DNA of 27,110 nt from IMG/VR virus record IMGVR_UViG_2579778745_000003, positions 1 through 27,110 of that record; one strand, given 5' to 3'. Positions 14,648 through 17,054 of the stretch are shown in pieces; within the stretch, counting starts at the first letter, position 1; the number at the start of each line of letters is the position of its first letter. This DNA comes from a virus. Lineage: Duplodnaviria; Heunggongvirae; Uroviricota; Caudoviricetes. Made by a program: the position numbers and the translations under genes. The notes below the pieces were generated by a model that saw nothing but the letters and a program-made list of their open reading frames with translations, did no database searches and was not told where the DNA came from.

Positions 14648-14743
14648 GTTTGTTTAATAAACGCACAATTGGATCTAATAACCTCTTTTTTTTAAAGGCG
14701 AAAATATGTACCCTAAATGAGTTATAAGGCAGGCGAGGTTATA

Positions 14744-15235
14744 ATGAGAAAACTATTACTACCGTTATTATTTATGGCTGGGACTGTTAATGCAGCATCA
14801 AGCGTAAAGGAGATTTGTACCGATTATACGAAATACCTTGGGCACGTTTACGGATTTGCTGTCAGTGAAGACGAATCCATGCGCAAGAAGTTACTGTCAG
14901 ATATGAAGCGCCTTAAACTTTCTGAAGCGATGGTGCAGCAGGAACTGTATAAAGTCTCAACCAACGCAAATGCTAAATACCAATATTCTCGCCTATTAAA
15001 CCCCGATGCAAATGAGATCAATCGAAGCACTTTCGATTATATGGTAAAGGCATGCGAAACCGCTCCTGATTTTGCTATCCCTAGCTGGGGTGTGCTGGTG
15101 GCGAGCAATGCCGTTAATAAAGAAGATGTTGGAAGAAATGGCATTGACTCAATCAGAAATGCCCCAGGAATGCGCCATCAAAACGTGCAGGGTACGCTTG
15201 AAGAACGAGCCAGGGGGCCGGGTGTAGCTCCATAA
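14744..15235 (+). CDS. secreted protein whose C-terminus copies a Sit (tape-measure) motif; candidate superinfection-exclusion factor in the sim position
   Basis: Sec signal peptide MRKLLLPLLFMAGTVNA|ASS after SD gagg (start ATG 14744; the ORF is open from 14717). C-terminal GIDSIRNAPGMRHQNVQGTLEERARGPG matches Sit NGRGMRREVVQGTLEERARGKG and GIDGLFDKLRNSPGMRKNN. Confidence 0.7.
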   Translation: MRKLLLPLLFMAGTVNAASSVKEICTDYTKYLGHVYGFAVSEDESMRKKLLSDMKRLKLSEAMVQQELYKVSTNANAKYQYSRLLNPDANEINRSTFDYMVKACETAPDFAIPSWGVLVASNAVNKEDVGRNGIDSIRNAPGMRHQNVQGTLEERARGPGVAP

Positions 15236-15323
15236 TTTAATGAATAATATTAAATTCTCTGGGCATAGTGGATCTAACAATATGGACTATGCCTATAATA
15301 TCTAAAACAAAAAGGATAAAAAT

Positions 15324-15830
15324 ATGAAATTATATAAGTCATTGTATAGCTTTTTATTAATGTCCTCTTTTCTGCCATTATCAGCAATGGCAGGTTCTAC
15401 CGTTTGGACGGTAGGAGGTGAGCAAGGGTGGAGAGAAATCTCTGCAACCAATGACGATGGTTATACAATTAACTTTTCTTGTGATGCTGGAGCAAGGGAA
15501 GGTTCCGAAGATCATATAGCTGGAAGAAATTTGTATGTAAGTGGAGGGAAAGAGAATGCTGATTTTTCTACACGCGACACAATTTCTCGTAAAGCTGATG
15601 TAATTACCTTAATTGTTGGTCCGGATAGCTTTAATATTGGTACGCAAAACACTGCTCCAAATCGTAGGGAATGGTATTCTTTTTGGAAGTCAGCGTCAGC
15701 CACAAAAGAAAAAAACATGGATGTATATATCGGATCGCGTCGAATTACATCATTCTCTCTTGATGGAATTTCAAGTATTTACAAGGAAGCTAAAAATGAT
15801 GGATGTTTAAAGCAAGATGACGGTGAATAA
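15324..15830 (+). CDS. secreted/periplasmic protein of unknown function (168 aa)
   Basis: Signal peptide MKLYKSLYSFLLMSSFLPLSAMA|GS. SD aaaggat upstream. AT-rich. Overlaps the next ORF by 14 nt. Confidence 0.65.
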   Translation: MKLYKSLYSFLLMSSFLPLSAMAGSTVWTVGGEQGWREISATNDDGYTINFSCDAGAREGSEDHIAGRNLYVSGGKENADFSTRDTISRKADVITLIVGPDSFNIGTQNTAPNRREWYSFWKSASATKEKNMDVYIGSRRITSFSLDGISSIYKEAKNDGCLKQDDGE

Positions 15831-17001
15831 AGTGAAGGATATTAAAAAACTTGCACTTGGCTCAGTAAGCGATCTCTATAATAGAGATTCAAATATTACC
15901 TGGCGTGATAATTTAAGTAAAATCAAAATCGCAGGATATACATCGGCAAGTGATTTATTAAAATCAGAATATGCTTCTAATAATTTGGTTAGACAGTTGG
16001 CAGAACTGCAAAAAAACGCAATCATTCCATCGTATAGAGAACATATGGCAAACTTGCAAGAACAGTTAAGAATAGGGCGGCTAGCTCAAGAACAAATAGC
16101 AAGATTGAATTTGCAATCGTTACTTAGTGATTCTGTTAAAAAACAGCTTGCGAACATGACGAGCTTGAGAAGAATAAATAGCAAGCATCGTGAATTTCTT
16201 GAAATTCTACAGAAACAGGCCAAGGTTTATCCCCCGCATGATGCAAATAAATACATTCAAATGCTAAGGAAGCAGGCAGAAATTGCTATGCCGTTACGAA
16301 ACCAGTTCGAGATGCTTAATAAGCAAGCTGGTTTAAATAACATGCAAGCAATACTTAATGAATTGCGACAAAATGTAAGTCATAAGATAGATTTAAACAA
16401 TGAAATAAAAGAATCATTAAAACAATATACCCTAGCGCAAAAGGCTTCATTACATCAAATAATGGAGCAAAGTCTTTCATCAATTGCACAGGCTTATGTC
16501 GAAGGTGCTATTGAAACATCTCACAACGAAAGTGATGTTCAAGACAAAGGATTAAATAAATCCAGTTCGACGTTCATTGATTCATTTAAGTCGCTCCCTC
16601 ACCCGCTTCAGTTTATTATTATGTGGCTTTTAACAGAAGTGGTGCTTGGCGCTATTGCTGATTATGCAAAAGAACAAATCTTATCGCAAATACACAAGAC
16701 AGAATCATATTCTGTATCCCTATATGAGGATGCACCAATATCAAAACAAAAATTAATTAAAGAAAACACAGAAATTAAGTGGGAAGATCTCAATGGTTTT
16801 AGGTTTATAACTGGTGATAACGTAAGATTACATGTCAGTCCTTCTTTAAATAGTGAAGTGATTGAATGCATTGGCAAAAACACAATTGTTGCTATTTTAG
16901 ATAAGAAAGATCGTCAATGGCTTTACGTGCAGGTTAAATCAGGGGATGAGTTTATTACTGGTTGGATTACACGAACATACACAAAGCCTCTTAAGGCTTG
17001 A
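15817..17001 (+). CDS. coiled-coil / single-TM / C-terminal SH3-like domain protein of unknown function (394 aa)
   Basis: About 250 aa are Q/L/K/N-rich with three tandem ML(R/N/Q)KQA units. One hydrophobic span, PLQFIIMWLLTEVVLGAIADYA. The C-terminal part GDNVRLHVSPSLNSEVIECIGKNTIVAILDKKDRQWLYVQVKSGDEFITGWITRTY reads like a bacterial SH3 fold. Start uncertain: ATG 15817, or GTG at 15823 or 15832. Confidence 0.65.
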   Translation: MTVNKVKDIKKLALGSVSDLYNRDSNITWRDNLSKIKIAGYTSASDLLKSEYASNNLVRQLAELQKNAIIPSYREHMANLQEQLRIGRLAQEQIARLNLQSLLSDSVKKQLANMTSLRRINSKHREFLEILQKQAKVYPPHDANKYIQMLRKQAEIAMPLRNQFEMLNKQAGLNNMQAILNELRQNVSHKIDLNNEIKESLKQYTLAQKASLHQIMEQSLSSIAQAYVEGAIETSHNESDVQDKGLNKSSSTFIDSFKSLPHPLQFIIMWLLTEVVLGAIADYAKEQILSQIHKTESYSVSLYEDAPISKQKLIKENTEIKWEDLNGFRFITGDNVRLHVSPSLNSEVIECIGKNTIVAILDKKDRQWLYVQVKSGDEFITGWITRTYTKPLKA

Positions 17002-17054
17002 ATTTTATCTCCGCATCTTCGGATTGGGTGTTGATGACGATGTGCTACTTGAAG

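What the first reader, a model, noticed from the sequence alone, without database searches (positions are those of the whole stretch)
14648..17054. Variable cargo slot bounded by conserved regulatory landmarks (Op51 on the left, tail late promoter on the right)
The sequence on both sides reads as canonical P1: immI with Op51 to the left, and the late-promoter element plus the pmgC-tub-pmgB-sit operon to the right. The 2.4 kb in between holds three plus-strand genes. All are predicted to be exported or membrane-anchored. There is a compositional step inside the block: the first gene is of intermediate GC and the last two are very AT-rich. This suggests at least two acquisition events. That pattern is typical of a prophage defence or exclusion hotspot.
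Basis: inference. Interest (0 to 1): 0.55.

Follow-up and report, generated by a model that had tools for sequence, protein, structure and literature searches.

The report
Alternative cassette in P1 superimmunity slot
This 2.4-kb stretch is the known, swappable "superimmunity" (sim) slot of a P1-type phage-plasmid, filled here with three uncharacterised cell-envelope proteins instead of P1's simABC; one of them carries a conserved motif also found in the phage's own DNA-injection protein.

Summary
The flanks are canonical P1: C4 RNA, the C1 operator Op51 at 14631-14647, the late promoter LPsit at 17106-17124, and pmgC-tub-pmgB-sit. Between them lie three plus-strand genes. Two have signal peptides. 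The third has one membrane helix and a C-terminal cell-wall-type SH3 domain. GC falls from 44.5% to 38% to 35%, against about 48% in the flanks.

In 72 IMG/VR loci plus P1 and P7, at least six alternative cassettes occupy this interval. All rejoin at the LPsit -22 box. The leftmost break is at the edge of Op51. In PLSDB, 505 plasmids carry pmgC: 167 have the P7-type cassette, 138 P1 simBC, 81 type A and 35 this type.

The slot's variability is already published (variable region 4 in PMC9603915) and is visible in the P7 annotation.

What I did not find described:
- P1 simA (52 aa) is the 5' stub of a 224-aa exported protein.
- The copy here is cut at codon 169.
- Its tail (NAPGMRHQNVQGTLEERARG) matches a conserved motif in the C-terminal region of Sit, the tape-measure/injection transglycosylase.

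No known defence system was detected. The likely function is superinfection exclusion at DNA entry. That is inferred, not shown.

The parts
14364..14449 (-). C4 antisense RNA of immI (left flank, conserved)
   Evidence: Rfam RF01695, 69.6 bits, E 9e-13
14518..14570 (-). a1/b1 C4 target sites in the c4 leader
   Evidence: Rfam RF03163, 55.5 bits
14631..14647 (-). C1 operator Op51 (Oc4). This is the leftmost boundary of the variable slot: P7-type cassettes diverge after 14645.
   Evidence: Consensus match with 1 mismatch, 0.12 expected by chance; P1 annotation offset; breakpoints
14648..14883 (+). Segment shared with P1: the predicted PsimA promoter (about 14653-14679 by P1's annotation) and the 5' end of simA/ORF1 encoding the signal peptide
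   Evidence: 94.8% nt identity to P1, ending at 14883; P1 features
14717..15235 (+). ORF1, 'SimA-long' (172 aa). The probable true start is ATG 14744, which is preceded by GAGG. It is a Sec-exported periplasmic protein, 3'-truncated relative to the 224-aa form.
   Evidence: ORF list; phrog_3933 E 2e-113; family sequences; signal peptide
15107..15232 (+). Sit-like tail of ORF1 (aa 131-172), with core NAPGMRHQNVQGTLEERARGPG
   Evidence: BLASTP against the resident Sit, 51% over 41 aa, E 9e-8; phrog_2533 E 1.8e-5; tblastn against 74 kb, E 3.5e-6; N-x-x-G-M-R-x-Q invariant in 8 divergent homologues
15223..15224 (.). Recombination junction. Identity to type-A cassettes (224-aa SimA-long + ORF2-family gene) ends here, at the GC step.
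   Evidence: blastn HSP window 14404-15223 against L023; protein comparison
15324..15830 (+). ORF2 (168 aa). Exported alpha/beta protein with two conserved Cys, restricted to P1-like elements (PF27224 by precomputed annotation; phrog_3429).
   Evidence: AF2 model pLDDT 82; no strong PDB relative
15817..17001 (+). ORF3 (394 aa). Its start overlaps the ORF2 stop by 14 nt. It has a hypervariable helical N-terminal 250 aa, one TM helix and an invariant C-terminal SH3b domain.
16603..16671 (+). ORF3 transmembrane helix (aa 263-285)
   Evidence: KD19 1.83; AF2 helix 262-294
16798..16989 (+). ORF3 SH3b (SH3_3) domain, aa 328-391
   Evidence: Pfam PF08239, 26.0 bits against a cutoff of 27, and precomputed on all homologues; Foldseek prob 1.0 to SH3b domains of cell-wall hydrolases and endolysin binding domains
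16984..16999 (+). Terminator-like hairpin at the end of ORF3
   Evidence: Consensus scan only
17103..17124 (+). Right boundary. All cassette types rejoin at ACAAATGAC, the LPsit -22 box (17106-17114); the -10 TAGAAT is at 17119-17124.
   Evidence: Alignment of 9 cassette types; P1 and P7 annotation
17156..17722 (+). pmgC, first gene of the conserved late tail operon (right flank)
   Evidence: 98% identity to P1
22070..22180 (+). Sit aa 917-953, the motif NGRGMRREVVQGTLEERARGKG shared with the ORF1 tail. A second partial copy, NSPGMRKNN, lies at 22298-22339.
   Evidence: the Sit SLT domain is at aa 738-843

Best explanation
**What it is.** The interval is the sim (superimmunity) slot of a P1-family phage-plasmid, carrying a minority, non-P1 allele. 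The slot lies between two regulatory elements that every family member keeps: the C1 operator Op51 with the c4 promoter, and the late promoter LPsit. The highly conserved flanks serve as homology arms, so whole or partial cassettes are exchanged by recombination. The 5' signal-peptide part of simA acts as an extra internal crossover zone.

**What it encodes.** This allele is a composite of at least three pieces:
1. The P1-like simA promoter and 5' end.
2. The body of a 'SimA-long' exported protein, cut at codon 169.
3. An AT-rich ORF2-ORF3 pair with overlapping stop and start codons.

**Proposed function (inferred).** All three products sit in the envelope of the lysogen and block entry of DNA from superinfecting P1-like phages, as P1 SimC is reported to do.
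- SimA-long would act in the periplasm as a decoy or competitor. Its tail carries the conserved N-x-P-G-M-R-H-Q...VQGTLEERARG motif of the Sit C-terminal region. Sit is the tape-measure/injection transglycosylase.
- ORF2 is periplasmic.
- ORF2 and ORF3 would form a second, wall-anchored module.

**Shown:** the anatomy, the polymorphism, the breakpoints, the motif sharing and the protein features.

**Inferred:** expression in the lysogen, ORF3 topology, the exclusion phenotype and the decoy mechanism.
For: **Position and flanks:**

**Polymorphism with common boundaries:**
- Slot lengths range from 1275 to 3789 bp, in at least six gene architectures.
- All types converge on the right at the LPsit -22 box.
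- Left breaks fall at 14645, 14725 (an IS), 14883 and 15223.
- P7 carries Upf50.5/Upf50.0 here.
- PLSDB frequencies are 167, 138, 81 and 35 of 505.

**Envelope theme in every allele:**
- Signal peptides occur in SimA-long, the ORF2 family, SimB, SimC and Upf50.0.
- Upf50.5 has a lipobox and a sub-threshold TraT hit.
- F11 is a multi-TM protein.
- ORF3 has a TM helix plus SH3b.

**Sit motif:**
- Pairwise E values are 9e-8 and 7e-9.
- It is the only cross-similarity between any cassette protein and 74 kb of P1/window six-frame translation.
- The core N..GMR.Q is invariant in SimA-long homologues down to 40% identity, while the flanking residues vary and carry indels.
- A lineage whose Sit is only 45% identical keeps SAPGMRHQVVQGTLAERAYGKG.

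**ORF2-ORF3 linkage:** the stop and start overlap, and the ORF3 family always co-occurs with an ORF2-family gene.

**SH3b:** it resembles cell-wall-binding domains.

**Dispensability:** simABC is non-essential for P1 lytic growth, as expected for a lysogen-benefit module (PMC10695390).

**Precedent:** entry-blocking systems that engage or mimic injection proteins include HK97 gp15 with the tape-measure protein, and SNIPE homologues that mimic a tail needle (PMC13190303).
Against: - There is no experimental or homology link between any of the three proteins and an exclusion phenotype. The one sim gene tied to superimmunity (simC) is absent.
- PADLOC, Pfam and NCBIfam give no functional assignment.
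- The Sit motif is invariant across all cassette types, including those lacking SimA-long. There is therefore no covariation to support a specific interaction.
- ORF1 here is truncated and could be partly disabled.
- ORF3 topology is not determined by flank charges. Its SH3 domain could be cytoplasmic.
Confidence: 0.6

Rival explanations
1. Lysogenic-conversion morons. The envelope proteins benefit the host in ways unrelated to phage entry, such as serum or complement resistance, adhesion, or envelope stress tolerance. The slot is simply a permissive site for AT-rich cargo.
Against: The families are essentially confined to P1-like phage-plasmids: 12, 26 and 47 clusters in databases of billions of proteins. 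That argues for a phage-specific role. The Sit-motif mimicry points at the phage's own injection machinery. The TraT and IalB hits are below threshold.
Confidence: 0.17
2. Accessory functions for the phage's own cycle. The products act in lysis timing, cell-wall penetration or tail assembly, since they lie directly upstream of the tail operon and include a wall-binding SH3b domain and a Sit-like segment.
For: The genes have the same orientation as pmgC-tub-pmgB-sit and sit next to it. SH3b domains are typical of endolysins. ORF3 aa 50-108 gives weak hits to tail-fibre assembly and chaperone profiles (E 0.01-0.05).
Against: The genes lie upstream of LPsit, not behind it, and end in a terminator-like hairpin. 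Unrelated genes replace them in P1 and P7, which make the same virion. simABC is dispensable. The chaperone hits are far below threshold.
Confidence: 0.08
3. A membrane-associated abortive-infection or sensor system. The hypervariable cytoplasmic N-terminal domain of ORF3 senses incoming phage components and the complex kills or arrests the cell.
For: The ORF3 N-terminal domain is extremely variable and repetitive, while the TM and SH3 parts are invariant. That pattern resembles recognition domains under an arms race.
Against: No effector domain (nuclease, pore-former, NTPase) is detectable. The N-terminal region is modelled with pLDDT below 50.
Confidence: 0.1
4. Decaying remnants. The cassette is recombinational debris with no current function.
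For: ORF1 is 3'-truncated relative to the 224-aa form. P1 simA is a 52-aa stub. IS insertions and stacked partial cassettes occur in relatives.
Against: All three ORFs are intact. The cassette is at least 99% conserved in 16 plasmids, and at least 80% of its length is covered in 35 plasmids from Escherichia and Salmonella. The families are conserved at 28-40% identity with invariant Cys and motif residues.
Confidence: 0.05

Closest known systems
P1 simABC (superimmunity locus; SimC is the processed periplasmic effector)
   Same: Identical genomic slot between Op51/c4 and LPsit/pmgC. Same promoter region and the same first 45 codons of simA. Same orientation, low GC, exported products and dispensability.
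   Different: There is no SimB or SimC homologue. SimA here is the long form (172 aa against the 52-aa stub). ORF2 and ORF3 are unrelated families. The phenotype is untested.
P7 Upf50.5/Upf50.0 cassette (lipoprotein + DUF5384 protein)
   Same: Same slot and the same right junction at LPsit. An alternative pair of exported proteins of unknown function. It is the commonest allele in PLSDB (167 of 505).
   Different: The proteins are non-homologous. The left junction is at Op51 itself, so even the simA promoter and 5' end are replaced.
T4 Spackle (Sp) and Imm superinfection exclusion
   Same: Proposed logic only: small envelope proteins of a resident phage that stop DNA entry. Sp does so by inhibiting the tail lysozyme in the periplasm (own knowledge; T4 Sie is cited in PMC13128918).
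   Different: No sequence or fold similarity was found. The P1 muralytic domain is an SLT transglycosylase carried on the tape measure.
HK97 gp15 / tape-measure-dependent exclusion, and SNIPE
   Same: These defences act at the inner membrane during injection and depend on the tape-measure protein. Some SNIPE homologues mimic phage injection proteins (PMC13190303).
   Different: gp15 and SNIPE are unrelated in sequence and architecture. There is no nuclease here. Mimicry here would be of a tape-measure C-terminal motif by a soluble periplasmic protein.
Bacterial SH3b (SH3_3) cell-wall-binding domains of endolysins and NlpC/P60 hydrolases
   Same: The ORF3 C-terminal 65 aa adopts this fold. The Pfam SH3_3 score is 26.0 bits against a 27-bit cutoff.
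   Different: No catalytic domain is attached. Instead it is fused to a TM helix and a long variable helical region.

Membership tests
P1 sim (superimmunity) locus | Located between the C1 operator Op51/c4 promoter and LPsit/pmgC, transcribed divergently from c4 | tested here: met
P1 sim (superimmunity) locus | Encodes SimA | tested here: met
   The first 45 aa are identical to P1 SimA. P1 SimA is the truncated form of this protein.
P1 sim (superimmunity) locus | Encodes SimB and SimC (SimC is the superimmunity determinant) | tested here: not met
   No nucleotide match beyond 14883. tblastn with SimB and SimC against the window finds nothing.
P1 sim (superimmunity) locus | Confers resistance to superinfecting P1 after adsorption | not testable with these tools
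   Requires plating and DNA-entry assays
Known anti-phage defence systems (PADLOC-DB v2) | Significant match of any component to a defence-system HMM | tested here: not met
   No hit for ORF1 or ORF2; ORF3 gives only Csx1 at E 0.12. Nine of ten alternative cassette proteins are also negative.
SH3_3 / SH3b domain proteins (PF08239) | SH3b beta-barrel at the C-terminus | tested here: met
   Pfam 26.0 bits (cutoff 27), E 1e-5. PF08239 is precomputed on 45 of 47 homologue clusters. The AF2 C-terminal region has pLDDT 70-90. Foldseek gives prob 1.0 to SH3b domains.
PF27224 / phrog_3429 (ORF2 family) | Sequence match across the full length with two conserved Cys | tested here: met
   phrog_3429 E 2e-70. 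PF27224 is precomputed on homologues. The local Pfam copy lacks this model. Alignment A5.
Periplasmic lysozyme/transglycosylase inhibitors (Ivy, MliC/PliC, PliG) | Fold similarity of ORF2 to a known inhibitor | tested here: not met
PTP-like phytase (PF14566) | Score above the gathering threshold and a catalytic CX5R motif | tested here: not met
   25.2-26.5 bits against a cutoff of 27. The only Cys in the matched region is in KACETAPDF, which has no Arg at +6 (read from the sequence).
TraT surface-exclusion lipoproteins (tested on the P7-type allele only) | Pfam TraT match above threshold | tested here: not met
   23.1 bits against a cutoff of 31

The most novel reading that the evidence does not exclude
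SimA-long is a periplasmic molecular mimic of the P1 injection protein. Its tail copies the conserved GMR(H)Q-VQGTLEERARG segment that follows the SLT domain of Sit. By competing for the partner of that segment (a host envelope factor, or Sit's own transglycosylase domain), it would stop DNA entry by superinfecting P1-like phages. On this reading the textbook P1 simA is a dead stub of that gene, and ORF2-ORF3 form a second, wall-anchored exclusion module.
Probability: 0.25. Interest if true: 0.6.

Novelty: new variant of a known kind. Interest (0 to 1): 0.38.

Why it matters
P1-like phage-plasmids are common in clinical and livestock Enterobacteriaceae and carry resistance genes. Which phage-plasmids can superinfect which lysogens shapes how they spread and recombine. 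This work shows three things:
- The sim slot holds at least six non-homologous envelope cassettes with razor-sharp regulatory boundaries.
- The cassettes are built modularly.
- One widespread component shares a conserved motif with the tape-measure/injection protein.

Together these give concrete, testable handles on P1 DNA entry, which is poorly understood, and on exclusion specificity. The result also corrects the reading of P1 simA as a bona fide small gene.

Tried and rejected
- **Defence-system finders.** PADLOC on the three proteins and on ten alternative cassette proteins found nothing, except a weak PDC-S37/DUF559 nuclease-like hit in one rare variant, L028.
- **ORF2 as a lysozyme or transglycosylase inhibitor.** A good AF2 model (pLDDT 82) has no such fold relative.
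- **ORF1 as a PTP-like phytase.** The hit is sub-threshold and the CX5R motif is missing.
- **Covariation of the Sit motif with cassette type.** Motif 1 of Sit is invariant across all types. The second motif has two alleles that do not track the cassettes. The one suggestive case (L054) is n=1.
- **Mimicry by other cassette proteins.** tblastn of ten cassette proteins against 74 kb of P1 and window sequence found only the SimA-long/Sit pair. The second half of the P1 genome (head and sheath genes) was not scanned.
- **ORF3 N-terminal domain.** The AF2 model is unusable (pLDDT below 50). There is no PDB sequence relative. The weak tail-chaperone hits were judged to be noise.
- **ORF3 topology from flank charges.** Inconclusive.
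- **Missing resources.** The afdb50 fold library was unavailable. The P1 genome paper was not held, so statements about how SimC acts rest on my own knowledge of Devlin 1982 and Maillou & Dreiseikelmann 1990.
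Full report
**1. What is in the sequence**

The window is a P1-family (Punavirus) phage-plasmid. The finding's interval matches P1 only in its first ~236 bases. It is 99.5-99.9% identical over its full length to about a dozen ~95-kb E. coli and Salmonella plasmids.

On the left:
- Rfam finds the C4 antisense RNA at 14364-14449(-) and its a1b1 targets at 14518-14570(-).
- The C1-operator consensus matches at 14631-14647 with one mismatch, against 0.12 matches expected by chance.
- By offset to the P1 annotation, this operator is Op51/Oc4, and the predicted PsimA promoter follows it.

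On the right, homology to P1 resumes at 17103. That is three bases before the -22 box of the late promoter LPsit (17106-17114; -10 TAGAAT at 17119-17124). It continues through pmgC, tub, pmgB and sit at about 98% identity.

Three plus-strand ORFs lie between these landmarks: 14717-15235, 15324-15830 and 15817-17001. GC is 44.5%, 38.1% and 35.0% respectively, against about 48% in the flanks. The ORF2-ORF3 block is the lowest-GC part of the 27-kb window, roughly 3.5 sd below the rest. The block really ends at 17102. Against P1 itself, the left break is inside ORF1 at 14883, not at Op51.

**2. The three proteins**

*ORF1*
- It begins exactly like P1 SimA: the first 45 residues are identical.
- It continues to 172 aa, whereas P1 SimA stops at 52 aa.
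- The likely true start is the second ATG (14744, MRKLLL...). It has a GAGG five bases upstream. It is also the start left intact in relatives where an IS sits just after the first ATG.
- The N-terminus is a standard signal peptide.
- The family is tiny: 12 representatives among 1.84 billion cluster representatives.

*ORF2*
- It is an exported 168-aa protein of a family confined to ~90-100-kb Enterobacteriaceae contigs (26 clusters). PF27224 is precomputed on these homologues, and the match to phrog_3429 has E 2e-70.
- Two Cys are conserved (F.CD and DGCLK).

*ORF3*
- Its start overlaps the ORF2 stop by 14 nt.
- Homologues form 47 clusters, again nearly all on ~90-100-kb contigs.
- The last ~130 residues are almost invariant. 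They comprise a TM helix at 263-285, a linker and an SH3b domain.
- The first ~250 residues are hypervariable, helical and in some genera tandemly repetitive.
- The SH3 domain resembles the wall-binding SH3b domains of amidases, NlpC/P60 enzymes and phage endolysins.
- Topology is not fixed by flank charges. N-in/C-out is inferred because there is no signal peptide to export a 260-aa N-terminal domain.

PADLOC, NCBIfam and PDB sequence searches give nothing further.

**3. Is the slot variable?**

I fetched 80 IMG/VR loci through PmgC. I located the anchors and tabulated the content of 72 resolvable slots, plus P1 and P7. Slot lengths range from 1275 to 3789 bp.

| Type | Content | Loci |
|---|---|---|
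| A | SimA-long (224 aa) + ORF2-family gene | 19 |
| B (P7 type) | Lipoprotein Upf50.5 + DUF5384 protein Upf50.0 | 19 |
| C (P1 type) | simA stub + simB + simC | about 12 |
| D | Different c4 allele, then a 116-aa multi-TM protein + ORF2-family gene + ORF3-family gene | 8 |
| E (this window) | SimA-long (172 aa) + ORF2 + ORF3 | 4 besides the window, plus two with an IS and two variants |

Singletons include L054 (a divergent SimA-long plus a SimC-like protein) and L028 (the P7-type pair plus a 419-aa TM/DUF559 nuclease-like protein).

All types rejoin the backbone at the same point, ACAAATGAC, which is the LPsit -22 box. The leftmost break, in type B, falls after ATTAGAGCA inside Op51 at 14645. 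In type D the divergence extends through the c4 leader, but a C4 RNA and an operator-like site are still present.

In PLSDB, 505 plasmids carry pmgC. Counts by cassette are:
- Type B: 167.
- P1 simBC: 138.
- Type A: 81.
- This cassette, at 80% coverage or more: 35.

**4. Mosaic history**

Breakpoints relative to the window are nested:
- 14645 against type B.
- 14883 against P1.
- 15223 against type A.
- About 16022 onward shared with type D at 83%.
- Further block replacements in the ORF3 N-terminal region (L033, L052).

The 15223 junction coincides with the GC step. It cuts SimA-long after ...ERARGPG, where the 224-aa form continues with TNSPMGNLSPEEL....

In P1, the last shared bases include the ATG that P1 uses as the simB start, which is Met54 of SimA-long. 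The simA stop aligns with Glu52. So P1 simA is the 5' remnant of a displaced gene, not an independent small gene. This is an inference from the alignment.

L038 carries a 93-bp duplicate of LPsit and the pmgC 5' end between two stacked cassettes. That is a footprint of recombination at the right boundary.

'At least two acquisitions' is therefore well supported.

**5. The Sit motif**

The ORF1 tail (aa 131-171) is 51% identical to residues 917-953 of the resident Sit protein, E 9e-8. The 224-aa form aligns over 47 aa with P1 Sit, E 7e-9. An independent profile hit places the tail at positions 927-963 of phrog_2533, a 1130-position profile I take to be the Sit family (E 1.8e-5).

In Sit, the motif lies about 75 residues after the SLT domain (aa 738-843). 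It is partially repeated at aa 993-1006.

A scan of ten cassette proteins against 74 kb of six-frame P1 and window sequence found no other similarity of this kind.

The core N-x-x-G-M-R-x-Q is invariant in eight SimA-long homologues down to 40% identity, although the residues just before it vary and carry indels. A divergent P1-like lineage has a Sit only 45% identical overall. It keeps SAPGMRHQVVQGTLAERAYGKG, which is as close to the SimA-long tail as the resident E. coli Sit motif is (18 versus 17 of 22 positions, by my count).

The motif is therefore old and under selection in both proteins. It does not covary with cassette type: motif 1 is invariant in all types. So a specific interaction is not demonstrated.

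**6. Mechanism**

*Most likely (about 0.6).* This is a sim-locus allele whose envelope proteins exclude superinfecting P1-like phages at DNA entry. The grounds are these:
- Its position in the slot whose P1 allele confers superimmunity.
- The strict envelope theme of every allele.
- The restriction of all three families to P1-like elements.
- The dispensability of sim genes for lytic growth (PMC10695390).
- The Sit mimicry.
- Precedents for entry blocks that engage tape-measure proteins or mimic injection proteins (PMC13190303).

*Decoy sub-hypothesis (about 0.25).* SimA-long competes with Sit for a partner. This is a sub-hypothesis of the main explanation.

*Rivals.* These are host-benefit morons, own-cycle accessory proteins, an abortive-infection sensor, and decayed remnants. 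Each is listed in its own section with evidence and a refutation test.

**7. Relation to what is known**

The slot's variability and low GC are published. PMC9603915 lists simC-simB-simA as variable region 4 of eight in P1-like phage-plasmids. The P7 GenBank record already shows Upf50.5 and Upf50.0 in place of simABC.

I did not find the following described:
- The catalogue of cassette architectures with exact junctions at Op51 and the LPsit -22 box.
- The modular reuse of the SimA-long, ORF2 and ORF3 families.
- The reading of P1 simA as a stub.
- The SimA-long/Sit motif.

This cassette fails membership of 'simABC' on the SimB and SimC criterion. It occupies the same locus and plausibly works in the same way.

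**8. Verdict**

The headline (a variable exclusion slot) is already known. The specific cassette is an uncharacterised variant with one interesting lead. Interest is 0.38.

Noticed in passing
L001 5069-5235 (P1 simA/simB junction), aligned with window 14717-14889: P1 simA (52 aa) is the 5' stub of the 224-aa SimA-long gene. Its stop codon aligns with Glu52 of the long form, and the simB ATG is Met54 of the long form, in frame.
   Followed up: yes
L064 3253-4580, L072 and L038 (aligned with window 14725/14735): An IS200/IS605-type element encoding a 402-aa TnpB-like protein is inserted right after ATGAGTTAT, the first simA ATG. The second ATG (MRKLLL) is left intact.
   Followed up: partly
L038 5554-5646 and 6949-7145: A 93-bp duplicate of LPsit plus the first 41 nt of pmgC separates a window-type cassette from a remnant of a D-type cassette. 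Two cassettes are stacked by recombination at the right boundary.
   Followed up: partly
L028, slot positions about 1669-2928 (419-aa ORF): A rare variant adds an N-terminally membrane-anchored protein with a DUF559/MTES_1575 restriction-endonuclease-like domain (Pfam E 2e-9; PADLOC PDC-S37 E 1e-5) to the P7-type pair. Its layout recalls membrane-bound nucleases that cut DNA during injection.
   Followed up: no
L004 4446-4742 (type-D loci): These elements carry a different immI leader: a C4 RNA followed by an isrK-like element instead of c4-a1b1, and a diverged operator (GTTGCTCTAATTATTTT). Here the variable block extends left of Op51.
   Followed up: partly
window 10466-11216: P1 rlfA and rlfB are absent (no blastn match). 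The interval between the 169-aa ORF ending at 10466 and repL holds only a 108-aa minus-strand ORF with no family match. This is a second published variable region of P1-like elements within the window.
   Followed up: partly
window 22298-22339 (Sit aa 993-1006) and the same region in L002-L081: The second GMR motif of Sit exists as two alleles across P1-like loci: FDKLRNSPGMRKNNAPEP and YDKLINARGMRSNNSPQP. L054, the one locus whose SimA-long has NARGMR, carries the NARGMR Sit allele (n=1).
   Followed up: partly
L083 10001-11452: A 41%-identical SimA-long homologue with an intact GMRHQ...ERARG tail sits in a 94-kb viral contig. No P1-like pmgC or sit lies within 10 kb. It is followed by two other small exported or membrane proteins.
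   Followed up: partly
P0045/P0046 (Citrobacter ORF3 homologues), alignment A3 columns 130-270: The N-terminal region of some ORF3 homologues contains up to about eight tandem copies of a ~19-aa unit (STIADSVSLSERITKLAQG). Salmonella and Citrobacter forms carry GGLLEGIHKQASF repeats.
   Followed up: no
L084-L086: A more distant P1-like lineage (PmgC 76%, Sit 45% identical) keeps the same slot organisation: ant, c4 region, SimA-long of 246 aa with an extra Cys-containing C-terminal domain, an ORF2-family gene, then pmgC.
   Followed up: partly
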